This document shows positions 43,428 through 50,955 of a stretch of DNA of 64,000 nucleotides, one piece after another. The stretch spans positions 131,284 through 195,283 of the IMG/VR virus record IMGVR_UViG_3300042484_003148; one strand, given 5' to 3'. Numbering within the stretch: the first letter of the stretch is position 1; each line of letters opens with the position of its first letter. The DNA is from a virus. Lineage: Duplodnaviria; Heunggongvirae; Uroviricota; Caudoviricetes. The notes below the pieces were generated by a model. That model was not told the DNA's origin and searched no databases. It saw only the letters and a list, made by a program, of their open reading frames with translations. Made by a program: the position numbers and the translations under genes.

Positions 43428-45122
43428 ATGGCTGATATAACAATTTTACCAAAAACCAAACAAGAACTACAAGAAGAGTGGTTGAAATGCGCTCTTGATT
43501 TTGAATATTTTGCTGAGACTTATCTTAAAGTTGAAGATAAAAAAAAAGGTGGGTGGTTTCCTTTTAAATTAATGCCACATCAAAAAGATGTTTTTGAATT
43601 ATATGAAAATAATGAATTAGCTATAACTAATAAATATAGACAATCAGGTATTACCACCTTTACTTGTGCTTATTATACATGGAAAATGTGTTTCAATAAA
43701 AATATAAGAATTGCAGTAATCGGTTCAAACTTAGAACATGCTAAAACTGAACTATTAAAACGTATATCAGATAATATTGAAGGTTTACCTGATTTTTTAC
43801 GTATAGAAACAATAATAGATTCACAAAAATATAAAACATATAAAAATGGTGGTGAAATAATCGCTAAAGCAGCTCAAGGAAATGCACTCAGGGGGACGAG
43901 TCCGAATCATATCATCCTAGATGAATTAGCACATTATGAGGACCTTGATAGTTTTTGGGAATCATCAAAATCAGCTTTTTCTATGGGGGGGTGTGTGAGA
44001 ATCATAAGTACCCCTTTAGGGTCAAGTAACATATTTTTTCAACTTTTTGATTTAGCTAAACAAGGTAAAAGTAGTTTTAAACCTATCGAATTAAAATGGT
44101 ATCATGATATACGATTAAATACTGACCTTAAATGGGTTTCTGGGTCAGATGAAATTATTGAGTACAATAAAGATAAACAAAAAGAATTAATTTTAAAAGG
44201 TTATAAACCTACATCTACATGGTATGAAAAAGAATGTGCAGGGTTTAATTATGATAAAAAGAAAATTGCACAAGAATTAGAAGGCGAATTCCTAGGTTCA
44301 GGTAATAGTTTTATAGATGAAGAATACATTAACCAACAGGAATTAGAAAACGTCTCAAAACCTATGTATTATGAACATAGTGATAAAAACTTTTGGATAT
44401 GGAAATATCCTTTAAATAGTGAACAAAAATTTATATTTGGTGTTGATGTTTCGTTAGGTACAGCAGAAGACTATAGTACTATTACTGTAATGGATATGTT
44501 TAATTTAGAAATGTATGCTGAATATAGAGGTAAAATACCACCAGATTTACTTGCTGATGTTGTTTACAAATTCGCAAACATATTCAATCATGCTTATGTT
44601 TGTGTTGATATAACAGGTGGTTATGGTGTTGCAACAGTACAAAAATTAATTAATGAATATAGTTATAAAAATTTACATTACACTGAAATTAAAGATAGAT
44701 ATATAAAAGATAGACTAGAAGGTGAAGCTAATGGTGATTTACGACCAGGTTTAACTATTGGGAAAAATCGCATGGAAATATTAGAATGTATGGCTAAAGC
44801 ATTCAGAAGTGGTGAATTAATTATTAGGTCATCTAGATTAATTGATGAATTAAAAGGTTTTAAAGATGTGGGTGGGAAACCTGACCATAAAAGAGGTGGT
44901 ACATCTGATTTAATTTTTTCATTAGCTATTGCATTATATGTTGGTGATAATAGTGGAACTACCATACTTAAAGCACTTGAAAGAACTAAATCTATGGTTT
45001 CATCATGGGTTGTTGTAAACTATAATAATGAAGATTTTGCTAGAGAACAAATTAAATTTGAAGAAAATTTAAAAAATAACGAAAATAATAATAAAATCCC
45101 TAGTTTATTTTATTTTAATTGA
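43428..45122 (+). CDS. terminase large subunit
   Basis: 564 aa. P-loop-like RQSGITT, Walker B IILDELAH, and a C-terminal RNaseH-like nuclease motif FGVDVSLGTAEDYSTITVMD. Confidence 0.75.
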   Translation: MADITILPKTKQELQEEWLKCALDFEYFAETYLKVEDKKKGGWFPFKLMPHQKDVFELYENNELAITNKYRQSGITTFTCAYYTWKMCFNKNIRIAVIGSNLEHAKTELLKRISDNIEGLPDFLRIETIIDSQKYKTYKNGGEIIAKAAQGNALRGTSPNHIILDELAHYEDLDSFWESSKSAFSMGGCVRIISTPLGSSNIFFQLFDLAKQGKSSFKPIELKWYHDIRLNTDLKWVSGSDEIIEYNKDKQKELILKGYKPTSTWYEKECAGFNYDKKKIAQELEGEFLGSGNSFIDEEYINQQELENVSKPMYYEHSDKNFWIWKYPLNSEQKFIFGVDVSLGTAEDYSTITVMDMFNLEMYAEYRGKIPPDLLADVVYKFANIFNHAYVCVDITGGYGVATVQKLINEYSYKNLHYTEIKDRYIKDRLEGEANGDLRPGLTIGKNRMEILECMAKAFRSGELIIRSSRLIDELKGFKDVGGKPDHKRGGTSDLIFSLAIALYVGDNSGTTILKALERTKSMVSSWVVVNYNNEDFAREQIKFEENLKNNENNNKIPSLFYFN

Positions 45123-45156: not shown

Positions 45157-47949
45157 ATGGCTAAAAAGTATTTTACTCCAGAACAAGTTAATCATATTAT
45201 TGATTGTTACGAAAATAAAAATTATTCTATTAAAAATATAGCTGTGGAATACAGATGTGACCCTGGTACTATTACTAGGGTCTTAAATGAAAATGACGTA
45301 AAAATTAAAGATTATAGGATACCATTTACGCCTGAACAAGAAGAGTATATTAAAATACAATATAACAATGGTAAAAGTACAGTCAAATTAGGTGAAGAAT
45401 TTGGTTGTTCAGCTAAAGCTATTGGGTCTTTCTTGAAAAGAAATGAAATAGTTGTAACTAAATCAACATTATTGTGTGATGAAGATATATCTAACATTAT
45501 TTTAGATTACATTGAAAATTCACTTACTTTAGAAGTTATTTCCGCAAAATATAATATTGCTAAAAGAAGACTTTCAGATATTTTACAAGAAAAGGGTATT
45601 GAAACAAAAAATAAATTATATAAAACATTTTCAGAAGAAGATGTTAAAGAGATTATCAAAATGTACACTATCGGATTTATTAGTTTAAAGAAGATAGGTG
45701 AAAAATATAATTGCGATAAAAGTGTTATTAGTAATCTTCTAAAGAAAAACAAGATTGAAATATATGATAGAAACCTTAAACACCATTTAATTGACGATGA
45801 AACCGTTTGTAATGAACATATTAACGGTTTATCAATAAATGATTTAAGTAAAAAATATGGTTGTTCTGACACAGTTATTACTAGAATTTTACAAAAAAAT
45901 AACATTGAAACTATTAATCATAGATTTTATAATTTTTCTAAAGAACAAGTTGATGAATTAATTAGGTTATACACAACTGAACTTAAACCAACATCTGAGT
46001 TATCTGTTTTATTTGACTGTACTGTTGATAGAGTTAATAAGATTTTACATGATAATAATGTATCTTTAATTAAACAAGCAGCAAATAAAATAACTTTCTC
46101 TACTGAAGATATTGATAAAATAAAAAGTTTACACAAAACAATGTCTAACAAAGAAATAGGTAGTTTATTTAATTGTAGTCCTGATACAATCAGACGACTT
46201 CTAAATAAGGAAGGTGTTAATACAAGTAAAAATTATCAAACCGAACAAAGTGTCATTGATAATATTGTTATTGATTATTCAATAAATAAACTTAGTACTA
46301 GAACATTATCTGAAAAATATAATTTCTCTCAAACGTATATTAGTAAGGTTTTAAAAGAAAATAATGTTGAAGCTAATTTAAGATATATAATTTCAGTTTC
46401 TTCTGATGAAGAGAAAGAAATTATTAGAAAACATGTTGAAGATAGAAAAACTTTAACTGAGATTAGTAATGAATATGGCATTAATATTAAATTTTTAAGT
46501 GAAAATATCTTTAAAAAGAATAATATTAATATTCAACTTAAAAAACCTGCTCAAGAGAAATTAAATATTGAACAAATATTAACCGAACTAAAAACAGGTA
46601 AAGGTATTTCAACTATCGCTAGAGAGAATAATTGTTCTTTCGGTACTATAAACTCAATAGCTATTAGTAATGGAATTAAAACAACAAATGAATTAACAGA
46701 TGTTTTTACTAATGAGTTGATTCTTAAAAAAGAAAATAGAAGATTTGTATTTGATAATTATCAAACTAAATTTGTTATTGAAAAATACACTAATGGTGCA
46801 ACAATAAAACAAATTAGTAATTTCCTTAAAGTTGACTATACTACAATCCACAGGGTACTTGTAAATAACAATATAAAGGTTCAACATAAATTATTAAAAA
46901 CATTTACTGAACAAGTTGAAGAAGATATCTGTTCAGAATACGTTGATAATAACAAAACTATGTTAGAAATTGGCAAACTATACAATGTGTCACAATCAGT
47001 TATTAGAAAAGTTCTAATAAAACACAACGTAGAAATTACCAATAATTATTATTCATCGGTTAACGAAAATAAAATTCGTTATATTCTTGGTTATTTTATT
47101 CCAACTATTCACAAGAAATCAGATTGTGATAATATTTTGCAAGCTAAGGAAATAGACATTATTGATTATACCAAAAAGATTGGTATAGAATATAACGGAA
47201 CATATTTTCATAGAAGCGAGAATAAATCCGAAACTTATCATATTGATAAAACAAAAGAAGCTTCGTCTGCCGGTTATAAACTGTATCATGTTTTTGATGA
47301 TGAATATGTACATGATTCTGTTAAAATAATAAACCGACTTTTGAAGTTATTTAAAACAGGTTTGTATATTACTGAAGATACTTATGATGAACTAGAAGAA
47401 TGTTTCTTCAGCAATACTAGTTACGATGAAATTTACATTGAAGGTTTAGTTAAAACCAAACTACCACTTTCTGAATGTACGATAACTAAAGTTGAACCAA
47501 CTAAACAATATTATCAGTTTTACACTGCGTTTGGTTTATTGAAATCTTACGATGAAACTATTAATAATGTCAATTACAATATTGAACATAAAGAATACGG
47601 TTTAATTGGTTATATTAGTATTAATAAAACAACCAATACTGTTGAAAATTTATTCATTGAAGATGATTATGTAATTACAGGTTTAAACAAAAGAATCTTT
47701 GATTTATATTTAAATGAATTTAAACCAACTGAGTTATTTATTGAAATTGACAGAAGATACGCTTCAGAGCCAGAGAATTTATCTGGTTTATCATTTGAGT
47801 TAATTAACGAAACAGAACCTAGAATTCATTATTTTAAGAATTATTCAAGATATATCGCAACTAATGAAACTAATTTAGAATTGGATTCTGATGTTGAGTG
47901 GAACATTATTCACGATTGTGGGACTTGGAAATATAAATTGATTAAATAA
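45157..47949 (+). CDS. modular endonuclease: 12 tandem helix-turn-helix repeats plus C-terminal DUF559/Vsr-like PD-(D/E)XK nuclease domain
   Basis: 930 aa. Twelve repeats of about 50 aa with consensus F(S/T)xE(Q/D)(V/I)xxIIxxY....S...I...Y.CS..TI.R.L..NNI. C-terminus DIIDYTKKIGIEYNGTYFH...YKLYHVFDDEYV aligns to the DUF559/Vsr-like motif (DF....IE.DG..H...L...G..V.RF...EV). Confidence 0.7.
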   Translation: MAKKYFTPEQVNHIIDCYENKNYSIKNIAVEYRCDPGTITRVLNENDVKIKDYRIPFTPEQEEYIKIQYNNGKSTVKLGEEFGCSAKAIGSFLKRNEIVVTKSTLLCDEDISNIILDYIENSLTLEVISAKYNIAKRRLSDILQEKGIETKNKLYKTFSEEDVKEIIKMYTIGFISLKKIGEKYNCDKSVISNLLKKNKIEIYDRNLKHHLIDDETVCNEHINGLSINDLSKKYGCSDTVITRILQKNNIETINHRFYNFSKEQVDELIRLYTTELKPTSELSVLFDCTVDRVNKILHDNNVSLIKQAANKITFSTEDIDKIKSLHKTMSNKEIGSLFNCSPDTIRRLLNKEGVNTSKNYQTEQSVIDNIVIDYSINKLSTRTLSEKYNFSQTYISKVLKENNVEANLRYIISVSSDEEKEIIRKHVEDRKTLTEISNEYGINIKFLSENIFKKNNINIQLKKPAQEKLNIEQILTELKTGKGISTIARENNCSFGTINSIAISNGIKTTNELTDVFTNELILKKENRRFVFDNYQTKFVIEKYTNGATIKQISNFLKVDYTTIHRVLVNNNIKVQHKLLKTFTEQVEEDICSEYVDNNKTMLEIGKLYNVSQSVIRKVLIKHNVEITNNYYSSVNENKIRYILGYFIPTIHKKSDCDNILQAKEIDIIDYTKKIGIEYNGTYFHRSENKSETYHIDKTKEASSAGYKLYHVFDDEYVHDSVKIINRLLKLFKTGLYITEDTYDELEECFFSNTSYDEIYIEGLVKTKLPLSECTITKVEPTKQYYQFYTAFGLLKSYDETINNVNYNIEHKEYGLIGYISINKTTNTVENLFIEDDYVITGLNKRIFDLYLNEFKPTELFIEIDRRYASEPENLSGLSFELINETEPRIHYFKNYSRYIATNETNLELDSDVEWNIIHDCGTWKYKLIK

Positions 47950-48003
47950 TATTAAGGTAATTAAACATAAAAGTTGTAAGACTATTTACAATAAACGACT
48001 TTT

Positions 48004-50955
48004 ATGTTTAATAACAAACCTAAAGAAATTGAATTGATAAATGAAGGTTTAATTCCAAGTATATTATCACATCAAGAAATGTTAAAAATGGGTGCGACAG
48101 GTGCTTTATCAAGAGCATTTGAAAGATATATTCTTTTAGATAAAATAGAAGGATTAGACCCAGAACCTTCTACATGGGGTGATGGTTATGAATTTAAAAA
48201 AGGTGAAGAAATTAAAAGTTCAATCGAAGTTATTTACGATAAAGACCGTGATATTTATTTTTTACAAAACGGTAATCATCGCATTAAACAAGCTAGAGTT
48301 AACGGTGATAAATATATACGTGCATTTATACAACCAGATAATGGTAAAATAGGTAATGATGCAAAATTATCTATAAGTGAATCATTAAATGAAACACGAC
48401 TTAACGAAGGTTACGAAGAAATTAAAGATATTAATGAATTAGCTAATGATATTATATATTCATTAAGTTATAAATTAAATGCAACAAAAACACCTAGTAA
48501 AAGTAACCCAGGTACATATTTATATGAATTTAATAAAGCTATTACTACAATAGAAGAATCTATTAATTTTCAAAAAACTGTTAAATATCAAAATTTTACA
48601 TCTAATAATTTTAAAAACTTTTGTGATAAGTTTAAAAATATTTCAATTACTTTTGAAAAAGGTTCAAAGGATAATGAAGGTAGATACAATCTTAATACTA
48701 AGAGTATTATATTATTTATTACAGATGAAAAAGAACTAGAAATTAATCAAGATTTAAATATTGATAATAAAGTTACAACTACTAAAGATATATATTTTAA
48801 AATTCATGGTAAGTTCATTTCTATATTAGAACATGAATTACAACATGTTTATGATGACTATATTTCAAAAGGTCAAGCTTTTAATGTTAAACAAACTAAA
48901 CATGAATACGATTATACTCAATTTGATGATGCTAAAGAATATTTAAATTTACCTTATGAAGTTAATGCTAGATTTACTCAAGCTATTAATAAAATTAATT
49001 TCTTAGAATTAGTGGATTTTACTGATGATAATAAACAAATTGAAAGACCTTATGAATTTAAAAAAGTATTACGTGATTTTTTATATCAATTTCCACATAA
49101 ACATTTGTTAAATCAAAATGTTAAAAATACTGTTATCAAAAGGTTATATAATATTTACAACAAAGCTATTGAAAAAGCTAAAACTGATGATAAAATTGAG
49201 TTAATTAAAGAAAATAACTTAGATTACACTACAACTGATGATAAAAATAATGTTTTAATTTATGTTGATGGTAATAAAATATTAAACAAATTAAAAACTG
49301 ATTCACCAGAGTTTGATATTACTAATAAAGATAACCAAATTGGTAATAGAGTTGAGAAAGCTAAAGAGTTTATTAGTAATTACAAAACCGACAAAAGACC
49401 AATTCACCCTACGACAGGTGAAAGAATAGATTATTTAGGTAAACATAGTTTTGAACCTTCAGTTGCATCTTTTGATATGAATGGTAAGTTAGGTTTTACT
49501 GACGGTAGACATAGAATATTAGCAGCAATTGAATCTGGAATAAACAAAGTAGGTGTATTAGTACCTAAAAACCAAGTAGATATGTTTAAAGATTTAATAA
49601 ACGAATCCAACTCACAACTTGAAGACACGTTTATTAAAATAAATTCACCAAATATTAAATCACACATTGATTCTTTAATTAATAAATACAGTGAGAAATC
49701 TGAGGTTATGAATTATATTAAACATGCTGATGAAGAATCAAATAAACCTGAGTATTCTATTTCATATACATATTGTAAAAAACTAATTAGTTTAGCTACT
49801 AATTTAAAAGACAAACATGGTCTTGATAAAGATAAATTTGAATTATATGGTGGTTTTCCTCTTATAAATTATTTATCAAAAGAACTAAATAATAAACGTG
49901 AAATAATATCACGTTCTAAAAAAATAAAAACTATGGCAGGATTTAATCACCAATATAACAAAGAACATGAAAGAGTTGGTTTAATTAAGAATGGTAAAAA
50001 ATATGTTGATAGAAATTTAAGAGAATGTATTGAATTAATTAAAGAATCTGAAGTTAAGGTAAATAAAGAAGCTTCATGTATTGTTTTATTAAATGAAGAC
50101 AAAAAAATATTATTACTTAAACGTAGTGATAAAACCCCTTGGGAACCTGGTAAATGGTCTTTAGTTGGTGGAAAGATTGATTTAGGTGAAAACGCTAAAG
50201 AAGCTGCTATTAGAGAATGTGGTGAGGAAACAGGTTTAGGTATCAAAGGAAATAAATTAATTTATTGTTTCACAATGAAAGAGGATGACTATGAAGTTAA
50301 TTTCTTTATTGGTGTTTCTGAAGGTAGTGATGTTAGATTAAATGGTGAACATACTGAATATAAATGGGTTAACCCAAATGAAATACCTGAACTAGAAACA
50401 GTACCTAATTTATTAGGTGAAATTAAAAAGTGTTTTGAAACGTTAAATGAAAATAAAGAAGAAACGGTTATTAACGAAGAATTCAATAAAACTGAATATT
50501 TAAAATGGAAACGTAATAATGTAACATATAGAGGAATTAAAGAATTAGGTCAAGATAACAATGTTTATGGTTCTTTTGGTAAAGGTTTATATACTGTACC
50601 AGCTAGCAATAAAGTTATGGCTAAAACTTTCGGAAAACTTTATTTTGTTGTAAATGGTATACCAAAAAATCCTAAAGTTGTTAATTCATTAAATGATGCT
50701 GAAATGTTCAGATATAATCTTATTAATGAATATTGTAAACAACATAATAACATTAAATCAGACGGATTTTTTGATGATAATACATCAATGGAAGCTGAAA
50801 TGTTAAAGCTTGGTTATGATGGTTTTGTTATTAAAGGTAGAGAAATGGTTAATTATAAACCTGAAAATGATAAGGTTAAATATTTTTCAAATGAAAACCA
50901 ATTAATTCAATATTATGAAAACTTTATCGAAAACAATAATTCTGTTATTAACTAA
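48004..50955 (+). CDS. large multidomain protein: two ParB-like nuclease domains, HExxH motif, NUDIX hydrolase domain, uncharacterised C-terminal domain
   Basis: 983 aa. ParB-like YFLQNGNHRIKQARVNGDKYIRAFI and LGFTDGRHRILAAIESGINKVGVLV. HELQH motif. Perfect Nudix box GGKIDLGENAKEAAIRECGEETGL (G-x5-E-x7-REUxEExGU). Confidence 0.65.
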   Translation: MFNNKPKEIELINEGLIPSILSHQEMLKMGATGALSRAFERYILLDKIEGLDPEPSTWGDGYEFKKGEEIKSSIEVIYDKDRDIYFLQNGNHRIKQARVNGDKYIRAFIQPDNGKIGNDAKLSISESLNETRLNEGYEEIKDINELANDIIYSLSYKLNATKTPSKSNPGTYLYEFNKAITTIEESINFQKTVKYQNFTSNNFKNFCDKFKNISITFEKGSKDNEGRYNLNTKSIILFITDEKELEINQDLNIDNKVTTTKDIYFKIHGKFISILEHELQHVYDDYISKGQAFNVKQTKHEYDYTQFDDAKEYLNLPYEVNARFTQAINKINFLELVDFTDDNKQIERPYEFKKVLRDFLYQFPHKHLLNQNVKNTVIKRLYNIYNKAIEKAKTDDKIELIKENNLDYTTTDDKNNVLIYVDGNKILNKLKTDSPEFDITNKDNQIGNRVEKAKEFISNYKTDKRPIHPTTGERIDYLGKHSFEPSVASFDMNGKLGFTDGRHRILAAIESGINKVGVLVPKNQVDMFKDLINESNSQLEDTFIKINSPNIKSHIDSLINKYSEKSEVMNYIKHADEESNKPEYSISYTYCKKLISLATNLKDKHGLDKDKFELYGGFPLINYLSKELNNKREIISRSKKIKTMAGFNHQYNKEHERVGLIKNGKKYVDRNLRECIELIKESEVKVNKEASCIVLLNEDKKILLLKRSDKTPWEPGKWSLVGGKIDLGENAKEAAIRECGEETGLGIKGNKLIYCFTMKEDDYEVNFFIGVSEGSDVRLNGEHTEYKWVNPNEIPELETVPNLLGEIKKCFETLNENKEETVINEEFNKTEYLKWKRNNVTYRGIKELGQDNNVYGSFGKGLYTVPASNKVMAKTFGKLYFVVNGIPKNPKVVNSLNDAEMFRYNLINEYCKQHNNIKSDGFFDDNTSMEAEMLKLGYDGFVIKGREMVNYKPENDKVKYFSNENQLIQYYENFIENNNSVIN

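What the first reader, a model, noticed from the sequence alone, without database searches (positions are those of the whole stretch)
45157..47949. Giant modular nuclease: 12 tandem HTH repeats fused to a DUF559/Vsr-like PD-(D/E)XK domain, immediately downstream of terminase
The 930-aa protein consists of twelve head-to-tail repeats of about 50 aa, each with a helix-turn-helix signature (consensus ..S...I...Y.CS..TI.R.L..NNI). The repeats vary at positions that would contact DNA. A C-terminal domain aligns to the DUF559/Vsr-like endonuclease motif (DIIDY...IGIEYNGTYFH...YKLYHVFDDEYV). An array of 12 DNA-binding modules fused to a nuclease resembles a TALE-like or homing-endonuclease-like modular recognition architecture. 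It could read a long asymmetric site of about 12 half-turns. It sits between terminase and a ParB/NUDIX giant protein, so a role in packaging-site recognition, homing or anti-host nuclease activity is possible. I do not recognise this exact architecture.
Basis: partly seen in the sequence, partly recalled or inferred. Interest (0 to 1): 0.8.

Follow-up and report, generated by a model that had tools for sequence, protein, structure and literature searches.

The report
Giant twelve-HTH phage homing endonuclease
This 930-residue jumbo-phage protein is an unusually large member of a known class of selfish DNA-cutting enzymes (Hef-like / EDxHD homing endonucleases): twelve different helix-turn-helix DNA readers are strung in front of a Vsr-like nuclease and a probably inactive Mom-like domain, and the gene sits in a slot after the terminase gene that is variably filled or empty in related phages.

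Summary
ORF 45157..47949 (+) encodes 930 aa with twelve ~50-aa tri-helical HTH units followed by a Vsr-like nuclease, 34 nt downstream of a T4-type terL.

Residues 736-930 form a GNAT/Mom-like fold, so the nuclease is not C-terminal.

The last 295 aa are a conserved two-domain cassette. It is found in about 55 of the top 150 cluster representatives and in 166 phage records, annotated 'Hef', 'Hef-like' or 'homing endonuclease EDxHD'. It matches I-Bth0305I (PDB 3R3P) by profile and by fold, and the nuclease residues are intact. Five of the seven residues important for Mu Mom activity are replaced.

In related phages the slot after terL holds cassette-bearing genes with 12, at least 5 (783 aa) or 5 HTH units. 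These share only 27-35% identity. One relative has no such gene there.

Alleles are recombinant. The HTH array and the nuclease cassette have separate histories, and both are under purifying selection.

Best reading: a free-standing homing endonuclease with an extreme modular DNA-binding array. It is a new variant of a known kind. A TALE-like code, a packaging role and a self-protecting momylation role are not supported.

The parts
45157..47949 (+). Whole gene: 930-aa HTH-array / Vsr-like nuclease / GNAT-like protein (stop codon included)
   Evidence: ORF list. The identical protein is on record on contigs of 265-308 kb. Orthologues of 68% and 61% identity exist.
45166..47046 (+). Array of twelve tri-helical HTH modules (aa 4-630)
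   Evidence: Repeat HMM. Pfam HTH_38/HTH_28/HTH_23/HTH_7. AF2 gives 36 helices in 12 triplets with low-pLDDT linkers. dN/dS is 0.34 against the orthologue in L006.
45166..45312 (+). HTH repeat 1 (aa 4-52)
   Evidence: (HTH_38 E 2.8e-5 on its own)
45316..45462 (+). HTH repeat 2 (aa 54-102)
45469..45615 (+). HTH repeat 3 (aa 105-153)
45619..45768 (+). HTH repeat 4 (aa 155-204)
45775..45921 (+). HTH repeat 5 (aa 207-255)
45925..46077 (+). HTH repeat 6 (aa 257-307)
46090..46233 (+). HTH repeat 7 (aa 312-359)
46234..46380 (+). HTH repeat 8 (aa 360-408)
46390..46542 (+). HTH repeat 9 (aa 412-462)
46546..46692 (+). HTH repeat 10 (aa 464-512)
46693..46740 (+). Irregular 16-aa spacer between repeats 10 and 11 (aa 513-528). 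The model's small beta-hairpin (aa 524-531) straddles the spacer and the start of repeat 11.
   Evidence: AF2 strands at aa 524-526 and 529-531; pLDDT below 50 at 509-518
46741..46890 (+). HTH repeat 11 (aa 529-578)
46897..47046 (+). HTH repeat 12 (aa 581-630)
47062..47361 (+). Vsr-like / EDxHD-type nuclease domain (aa 636-735). Conserved residues: E637 (47065-67), D667 (47155-57), E678 (47188-90), N680 (47194-96), H685 (47209-11), H695 (47239-41), K698 (47248-50), D715 (47299-301).
47362..47946 (+). GNAT / Mom-like domain (aa 736-930), starting with a linker of ~30 aa present only in some family members (10 of the 34 aligned). Residues at the positions of the Mom catalytic residues: G793, L794, N831 (or F833), K845, D865, R867, L875.
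43428..45122 (+). terL (T4-type large terminase), the conserved left flank of the insertion slot
   Evidence: Pfam Terminase_6N and PHROG terminase large subunit. Synteny holds in L006, L007, L015, L016-L018, L019, L020 and L021.
48004..50955 (+). 983-aa NUDIX protein, the right flank of the slot. Its N-terminus (MFNNKPKEIELINE) matches the giant ParB_N/ART-PolyVal/NUDIX protein that lies 244 bp downstream of terL, after only a 50-codon ORF, in the gene-less relative L019.

Best explanation
The gene is a free-standing homing-endonuclease gene of the Hef-like (EDxHD, Vsr-fold) family, lodged in the intergenic slot between terL and a giant NUDIX protein of a T4-like jumbo phage.

Proposed mechanism. 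The twelve different HTH modules are joined by flexible linkers. They lay the protein along a long, asymmetric stretch of DNA. The Vsr-like domain (E637, D667, N680, H685, H695/K698) hydrolyses the backbone with metal ions, probably as a dimer, as I-Bth0305I does. In a mixed infection the break in a genome lacking the gene would be repaired from the genome carrying it. That copies the gene and converts flanking markers such as terL.

The GNAT/Mom-like domain packs tightly against the nuclease. It has lost most Mom catalytic residues, so it most likely serves a structural, dimerisation or DNA-contact role.

Shown here: the domain identities, conservation of the nuclease residues, purifying selection on all three parts, the filled/empty/replaced slot, and recombination between the array and the nuclease cassette.

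Inferred, not shown: cleavage itself, the target site, the length of the footprint, dimerisation, and homing.
For: 1. The last 295 aa form a cassette shared, always at the C-terminus, by about 55 of the top 150 representatives. It also occurs in 166 phage records annotated Hef, Hef-like or 'homing endonuclease EDxHD', often in several copies per genome.
3. D667, E678, G681, H685 and K698 are invariant. E637, E665, Y694 and H695 are at least 90% conserved across 30-34 cassettes, and D715/E716 across the 12 full-length relatives.
4. I-Bth0305I itself carries three weak matches to the same HTH module in front of its nuclease. PMC3239194 states that Hef-type enzymes belong to this family.
5. Slot polymorphism in relatives that share terL and its upstream genes: 930 aa with 12 HTH (window); 933 aa (L006/L007); a split copy (L015); 554 aa with 5 HTH at 35% identity (L016-L018); 783 aa at 27% identity (L020/L021); and no such gene in L019. 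TerL stays 60-82% identical throughout.
6. Mosaicism: P0152 has the array of P0001 (76-92% identity in all but one 50-aa window) and the cassette of the window protein (94-98%). P0003 shares the GNAT-like domain of P0001 behind a different 9-HTH array. L015 is recombinant inside the array.
7. Selection: dN/dS is 0.34 for the array and 0.03-0.06 for the cassette.
8. No Rfam family reaches threshold anywhere in the window, so no known intron family is detected and the gene is free-standing.
Against: No cleavage, target site or homing event is demonstrated.

The only empty-site relative found has a TerL just 60% identical. The polarity (gain or loss) and the target sequence therefore cannot be read from it.

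Five of the six terL lineages examined carry a gene of this kind at the same place. That could also mean the gene does something useful next to terL.

The fifth EDxHD motif residue (Asp222 of I-Bth0305I) aligns with His695, not Asp.

Purifying selection on all twelve modules is more than a purely selfish, decaying gene would need.

The dN/dS figures are Nei-Gojobori estimates. dS is near saturation in the array.
Confidence: 0.75

Rival explanations
1. A single-polypeptide conflict system, as proposed for jumbo-phage REase-Mom fusions. The Mom-like domain would modify adenines in the phage's own DNA. The fused nuclease would then destroy unmodified host or competitor DNA. The HTH array would set the recognition sites.
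Against: In this protein the positions of H58, Y59, R111, S124 and Y159 are G793, L794, N831 (or F833), K845 and L875. R111A and S124A abolish Mu Mom activity (PMC13219725). The gene is absent from one relative, and the alleles found in the slot share only 27-35% identity. That pattern fits a selfish gene better than a genome-wide protection system.
Confidence: 0.08
2. A packaging accessory: a TerS-like or pac-site-recognising nuclease that works with the adjacent large terminase.
For: The gene is immediately downstream of and co-oriented with terL in five of six related lineages. terL and the HTH array form one divergent block between the window and L006. There is a weak PHROG match to a TerS family (phrog_1206, E 9e-5).
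Against: The PHROG match covers only 33 residues of one HTH. No TerS or oligomerisation domain is detected. L019 keeps terL and the same neighbours without any such gene. The alleles in the slot are far more divergent (27-35%) than TerL (60-66%). T4-type TerL carries its own nuclease (established knowledge). All annotated homologues are named homing endonucleases, none terminase.
Confidence: 0.05
3. A competitor- or host-directed nuclease without homing (exclusion of co-infecting relatives or degradation of host DNA), or a domesticated DNA-binding regulator that keeps its nuclease for another purpose.
For: Purifying selection acts on all twelve modules and on the cassette. The same HTH-array type is attached to non-homing effectors such as an SNF2 helicase, and also occurs alone. 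PHROG matches include 'transcriptional regulator, D5-like'.
Against: The nuclease residues are fully conserved, so this is not a nuclease-dead regulator. Presence/absence and allele replacement at one slot are the signature of homing genes. Marker exclusion is in any case part of how free-standing homing endonucleases act (PMC2988022).
Confidence: 0.1

Closest known systems
I-Bth0305I (EDxHD family; intron-encoded, Bacillus phage 0305phi8-36; PDB 3R3P)
   Different: I-Bth0305I is 266 aa with about 3 modules, against 930 aa with 12 here. It is intron-encoded, whereas this gene is free-standing (no Rfam match). It has no GNAT/Mom-like domain. Its Asp222 aligns with His695 here.
Hef (phage U5) and 'Hef-like' free-standing homing endonucleases (Campylobacter phages, Bacillus AR9/PBS1, Dickeya LIMEstone F-LimVII, Klebsiella Muenster 'EDxHD')
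   Same: The same two-domain C-terminal cassette of nuclease plus GNAT/Mom-like domain, at 23-33% identity. These are free-standing genes placed next to or inside essential genes. Hef cuts nrdB of phages lacking it (PMC2988022).
   Different: Their N-terminal DNA-binding parts are DUF7487 repeats, CapR domains or zinc ribbons, or 0-4 HTH modules, and they are 450-610 aa long. Most keep the Mom catalytic residues, whereas this clade has lost them. Homology to U5 Hef itself rests on PMC3239194 and on record annotations, not on a direct comparison made here.
Jumbo-phage REase-Mom fusions (Iyer et al. 2021) and phage Mu Mom
   Same: A GNAT/Mom fold fused to a REase-fold nuclease in jumbo phages. 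The PA5oct 'putative homing endonuclease' is among the structural matches.
   Different: Five of the seven residues important for Mu Mom are replaced here. A momylation function is therefore doubtful for this protein.
GIY-YIG and HNH phage homing endonucleases with NUMOD/HTH tails (I-TevI, I-BmoI, I-HmuI, Seg/Mob proteins)
   Same: The same design principle: a small nuclease loosely tethered to an elongated chain of small DNA-binding modules (PMC3943268). The same HTH-array type occurs with GIY-YIG (P0007; BcepSauron/Saruman) and LAGLIDADG (P0034) domains.
   Different: The nuclease folds are unrelated. Characterised members have 1-3 modules and contact up to about 30 bp.
TALE repeats and zinc-finger arrays
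   Same: Tandem small DNA-binding modules fused, naturally or artificially, to a nuclease.
   Different: This is an analogy only. These repeats are 10-36% identical, have no defined specificity residues, and give no confident solenoid.

Membership tests
EDxHD / Hef-like homing endonucleases | Catalytic domain with the Vsr-like variant of the restriction-endonuclease fold | tested here: met
EDxHD / Hef-like homing endonucleases | Motif residues E, D, (N/H), H (I-Bth0305I E170, D196, N208, H213) | tested here: met
   N680 and H685 (and E678 with I-Bth0305I E206, which is outside the motif) align directly. E637 and D667 are assigned by motif and spacing against the I-Bth0305I sequence. These positions are invariant or at least 90% conserved, except N680, which is variable among the 34 cassettes.
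EDxHD / Hef-like homing endonucleases | Fifth motif residue Asp (I-Bth0305I D222, Vsr D97) | tested here: not met
   D222 aligns with His695, which is at least 90% conserved as His in the Hef-like cassette. K225 aligns with the invariant K698. The acidic D714-D715-E716 lies on the next strand and may substitute; this is unresolved.
EDxHD / Hef-like homing endonucleases | Nuclease tethered to modular HTH/NUMOD DNA-binding region | tested here: met
   Twelve HTH modules lie N-terminal to the nuclease.
EDxHD / Hef-like homing endonucleases | Site-specific double-strand cleavage and homing into genomes that lack the gene | not testable with these tools
   This needs biochemistry and mixed infections.
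Free-standing homing endonuclease genes (behaviour) | Presence/absence or replacement polymorphism at a fixed intergenic slot between conserved genes; not within a detectable intron | tested here: met
   The slot after terL is filled with alleles of 27-77% identity, split, or empty. No Rfam match in the window.
Mom family (GNAT-fold DNA adenine modifying enzymes) | GNAT fold resembling Mu Mom | tested here: met
Mom family (GNAT-fold DNA adenine modifying enzymes) | Residues important for Mu Mom activity: H58, Y59, R111, S124, D149, R151, Y159 (PMC13219725) | tested here: not met
   The window protein has G793, L794, N831 (or F833), K845, D865, R867 and L875. Only the D149 and R151 equivalents are kept. 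The hhalign to a single Mom sequence is weak (E 9e-4, probability 23%), but both alignments give non-Arg and non-Ser at the key positions.
Canonical PD-(D/E)XK nucleases | D ... (D/E)-x-K triad | tested here: not met
   The sequence is D667 ... E678-Y-N680. Asn replaces Lys, as in I-Bth0305I (N208); Vsr has H64 there.
TALE-like modular code | Near-identical repeats that differ at one or two specificity residues and form a superhelix around DNA | tested here: not met
   Repeats are 10-36% identical, mean 23%. Variation is spread over all surface columns. Full-length pTM is 0.39 with disordered linkers. Binding to DNA was not modelled.
Terminase small subunit | TerS family domain with oligomerisation region; indispensable partner of TerL | tested here: not met
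   Only a 33-aa HTH-level PHROG match. No TerS Pfam family is detected. The gene is absent next to terL in L019.
Transposase (one source's annotation) | Transposase catalytic domain (DDE or other) | tested here: not met
   JGI names the protein 'transposase'. Only the HTH parts of transposase families match (HTH_38, HTH_Tnp_ISL3, HTH_7).

The most novel reading that the evidence does not exclude
The twelve-module array may be a natural, recombination-shuffled modular reader of a very long DNA target, on the order of 100 bp. Each diverged HTH would read its own sub-site. Retargeting of the nuclease would occur by swapping whole modules or blocks of modules between alleles, as the mosaics P0152, P0003 and L015 suggest. 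The same scaffold is reused with GIY-YIG, LAGLIDADG and SNF2 effectors. If modules bind independently and additively, this would be a third natural modular DNA-recognition scaffold beside zinc fingers and TALEs.
Probability: 0.15. Interest if true: 0.8.

Novelty: new variant of a known kind. Interest (0 to 1): 0.45.

Why it matters
Homing endonucleases are usually small (a review gives fewer than about 200 residues as typical), and phage ones contact about 20-30 bp, or about 60 bp for I-Bth0305I. A 930-residue member with twelve distinct HTH modules, all held under purifying selection, is the largest array found in this family here. It raises a testable question: how does a loosely tethered chain of weak readers set specificity, and how long a site can it read?

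The locus also offers a clean natural example of a slot being invaded, replaced and lost next to terL. It shows the DNA-binding array and the nuclease cassette being exchanged as separate units.

It further shows that the Mom-like domain of 'Hef-like' enzymes exists in two states. In 18 of 30 cassettes the His and Arg at the Mom H58 and R111 positions are kept. In 12 of 30, including this one, they are replaced. That bears on the published idea that these fusions both modify and cut DNA.

Tried and rejected
**Searches that gave nothing or too little**
- The word-indexed protein search with the C-terminal 295 aa found nothing. Single-sequence phmmer against PDB also found nothing. A family profile was needed.
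- IMG/VR scans with TerL and with the upstream 246-aa protein found no relatives.
- The metagenome scan returned only a terL contig truncated before the slot, plus distant terminases.
It was rebuilt without them.
- Sandegren et al. 2005 (the Hef paper) is not held.

**Checks that came back negative**
- No tandem DNA array with about 12 units occurs in the window.
- Promoter-like sites are not above the shuffled expectation, 71 against 66.5 +/- 8.3.
- No Rfam family reaches threshold, so no known intron family is detected.
- There are no paralogues of the array or the cassette elsewhere in the 64-kb window.
- The triple repeat GTGAAAAAYRGTTA of the empty site in L019 does not occur in the window.

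**Interpretations rejected**
- Terminase small subunit: only an HTH-level match, and the gene is absent in L019.
- Transposase (the JGI name): no catalytic domain.
- TALE-like code: the repeats are too diverged and have no hypervariable pair.
- Diversifying selection on the recognition helix: mean orthologue identity is about 0.63 for helix 3, against 0.53 and 0.58 for helices 2 and 1 (computed).
- Recent duplication of repeats: TRF finds no repeat of about 150 nt in the gene, and there is no higher-order periodicity.
Full report
**1. The observation**

The ORF at 45157..47949 (+) is real and encodes 930 aa. A repeat HMM finds exactly twelve units of about 50 aa between residues 4 and 630. Pfam supports HTH_38, HTH_28, HTH_23 and HTH_7 independently (HTH_38 E 5e-24).

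A full-length AlphaFold2 model shows 36 helices in twelve triplets of about 12, 7 and 10 residues. Nine of the eleven junctions between units include a stretch with pLDDT below 50. Overall mean pLDDT is 74 and pTM is 0.39. This looks like beads on a string rather than a confident rigid solenoid.

The repeats are old and all different. They share 10-36% identity (mean 23%) and show no higher-order period. There is no DNA-level tandem repeat in the gene.

terL (T4-type) ends 34 nt upstream. The next ORF (983 aa) has a NUDIX domain.

**2.

The nuclease motif lies at aa 667-718, inside a domain spanning about aa 636-735. A further ~195 aa follow it.

| Domain | Match | Score |
|---|---|---|

Foldseek agrees on the GNAT fold.

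**3. Family assignment**

- tblastn against phage genomes matched the cassette in 166 records. These are annotated 'Hef', 'Hef-like homing endonuclease', 'homing endonuclease EDxHD' or F-LimVII, often with several copies per genome.
- An exhaustive HMMER search of 1.84 billion representatives gave 4652 hits. About 55 of the best 150 carry the same nuclease-plus-GNAT cassette, always at the C-terminus, behind 0 to 12 HTH units.
- A profile of the cassette hits PDB 3R3P at E 1e-6.
- hhalign to full-length I-Bth0305I gives 95% probability.
- Taylor et al. (PMC3239194) state that Hef-type enzymes belong to this Vsr-like 'EDxHD' family.

Residue correspondence is as follows. N680 and H685 align directly with N208 and H213, and E678 aligns with E206, which lies outside the motif. 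E637 and D667 correspond to E170 and D196 by motif and spacing. The fifth motif residue, D222, aligns with a conserved His (H695), so that feature is not met. D667, E678, G681, H685 and K698 are invariant across the cassettes.

I-Bth0305I itself has three weak matches to the same HTH module. The present protein is therefore the same design with the array expanded about four-fold and a GNAT domain added.

**4. The Mom-like domain**

Iyer et al. 2021 (PMC7824862) already noted Mom domains fused to REase-fold nucleases in jumbo phages. They read them as combined modification and restriction systems. Work on Mu Mom (PMC13219725) identifies H58, Y59, R111, S124, D149, R151 and Y159 as important, and R111, S124 and R151 as essential.

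I aligned Mom to the cassette profile and tabulated the columns.

- In 18 of 30 cassettes the His and Arg at the Mom H58 and R111 positions are kept. D149 and R151 are kept in 26-28 of 30. The Ser at the S124 position is kept in 13. The corresponding motifs are NHIQG, ELxR, GGxSKL, DRRW and Y.
- In 12 of 30, including the window protein and its relatives with long arrays, the His and Arg are replaced.
- The window protein has G793, L794, N831 (or F833), K845 and L875 at the positions of H58, Y59, R111, S124 and Y159. It retains only D865 and R867.

I infer that it does not momylate DNA. The domain is still under strong purifying selection (dN/dS 0.06), so it presumably has a structural, dimerisation or DNA-contact role. 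Mu Mom is a dimer.

**5. Evidence that the gene behaves as a free-standing homing gene**

TerL relatives were found and their contigs read.

| Locus | TerL identity to window | Gene(s) directly after terL |
|---|---|---|
| window | 100% | 930 aa, 12 HTH + cassette |
| L015 | 82% | same gene, split into 418-aa and 186-aa fragments |
| L006 / L007 | 73% | 933 aa, 12 HTH + cassette |
| L016-L018 | 66% | 554 aa, 5 HTH + cassette, 35% identity to the window protein |
| L020 / L021 | 61% | 783 aa, at least 5 HTH + cassette, 27% identity |
| L019 | 60% | no such gene: a 50-codon ORF, then a 1639-aa ParB_N/ART-PolyVal/NUDIX protein |

The N-terminus of the L019 giant protein (MFKKKPKEIELMNE) matches that of the window's 983-aa protein. 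The gene is therefore dispensable. The alleles in the slot are far more divergent than the flanking genes, as with mob/seg/hef replacements in T-even phages (PMC2988022). No Rfam family reaches threshold anywhere in the window, so no known intron family is detected.

**6. Modular recombination**

Between the window and L006, nucleotide and amino-acid identity change sharply along the locus.

| Segment | Identity (window vs L006) | dS | dN/dS |
|---|---|---|---|
| Two upstream genes | 95-99% aa | – | – |
| TerL | 73% aa | – | – |
| HTH array | 55% aa | about 1.06 | 0.34 |
| Nuclease + GNAT cassette | 96-97% aa | 0.27-0.43 | 0.03-0.06 |
| Next gene downstream | unrelated | – | – |

- P0152 is a chimera. 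Its array resembles that of P0001 (76-92% identity in all but one 50-aa window) and its cassette resembles the window's (94-98%). The breakpoint lies at the junction of array and nuclease.
- P0003 shares an almost identical GNAT domain with P0001 behind a different 9-HTH array.
- L015 switches parentage inside the array.
- All three parts are under purifying selection, and the number of modules (12) is kept between alleles that are only about 50% identical in the array.

**7. What is not supported**

- TALE-like code. There are no near-identical repeats with hypervariable positions. Between orthologues the recognition helix is, if anything, slightly more conserved than helices 1 and 2.
- Packaging or TerS role. 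The only match is a 33-residue HTH-level PHROG hit, and the gene is absent in L019.
- A DNA repeat matched to the twelve modules. None occurs in the 64-kb window. The rest of the 265-308 kb genome was not available.

**8. Mechanism and confidence**

The most likely mechanism (0.75) is that of a Hef-like / EDxHD homing endonuclease. A chain of twelve HTH readers anchors the protein on a long asymmetric site near the terL-proximal slot of genomes lacking the gene. The Vsr-like domain cuts. Repair from the genome carrying the gene copies it across and co-converts flanking terL sequence.

Cleavage, the target, the footprint length and dimerisation are inferred. The rivals are a momylation-plus-restriction system (0.08), a packaging accessory (0.05), and an exclusion nuclease or regulator without homing (0.10).

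**9. Novelty**

The kind is known: Hef/EDxHD homing endonucleases and REase-Mom fusions. The variant is not characterised. Twelve HTH modules is the highest count seen with this cassette among the top hits; the next highest is nine. Characterised phage homing endonucleases have one to three modules.

Arrays of the same HTH type also occur with GIY-YIG, LAGLIDADG and SNF2 domains, and alone. The array is therefore a widely reused but essentially unstudied scaffold. I found no paper in the held library that describes such arrays.

Noticed in passing
window 43591-44190 (inside terL): This block of terL is only 58-71% identical in nucleotides to the orthologue in L006. The 1.8 kb upstream is 91-97% identical and the rest of terL about 78-88%. 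terL and the HTH array together form one divergent block bounded by near-identical DNA. This is a possible co-conversion or recombination tract.
   Followed up: partly
window 48004-50955: The 983-aa protein downstream has a NUDIX domain (aa 690-797) but no Pfam ParB match at E <= 1. Its relatives are larger (1199+ aa and 1639 aa) and carry ART-PolyVal plus NUDIX, and one has a faint ParB_N hit. Only the first ~14 residues and the NUDIX-containing part (aa 532-894) are clearly shared. Sequence motifs GNHRIKQA and DGRHRILAA suggest two ParB/Srx-like segments; I did not test this.
   Followed up: partly
L015 4569-6319: In the relative with 82% TerL identity the orthologous gene is broken by a frameshift inside repeat 8, giving 418-aa and 186-aa fragments. 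It also switches from window-like (77%) to P0152/P0001-like (77-79%) sequence. This is either a decaying copy or an assembly error.
   Followed up: partly
L019 7673-7736: The empty slot just after terL in the relative lacking the gene holds three direct repeats of GTGAAAAAYRGTTA, with 20 and 30 nt between successive starts. The motif is absent from the window and from the other 21 loci.
   Followed up: partly
window 47969-48003: The 54-nt spacer after the gene contains nested inverted repeats (AAAAGT...ACTTTT around TTGTAAgactatTTACAA). It is AT-rich and was not called as a terminator by the scan.
   Followed up: no
proteins P0006, P0007, P0027, P0034 (representative library): The same HTH-array type occurs in other contexts. 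P0006 (1136 aa) has at least 11 units and no detected nuclease. P0007 (898 aa) has 12 units, with a Pfam GIY-YIG match at its N-terminus and a second GIY-YIG-like segment by eye. P0027 is fused to an SNF2-type helicase. P0034 has a LAGLIDADG domain.
   Followed up: partly
L002 (Bacillus phage AR9) 572-3316: In AR9 a Hef-like endonuclease and a second 'group I intron VSR' endonuclease both lie inside the split gene for the virion RNA polymerase beta' subunit.
   Followed up: no
window 45157-47949 (annotation): One public source (JGI) names this exact protein 'transposase'. This appears to rest only on matches to transposase-type HTH families, since no transposase catalytic domain is present.
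   Followed up: yes
L006 9718-10470 and L016 9433-10239: In two relatives a 250-268-aa protein of unknown function (48% identical between them, absent from the window) follows the endonuclease gene. The right side of the slot is therefore variable too.
   Followed up: no
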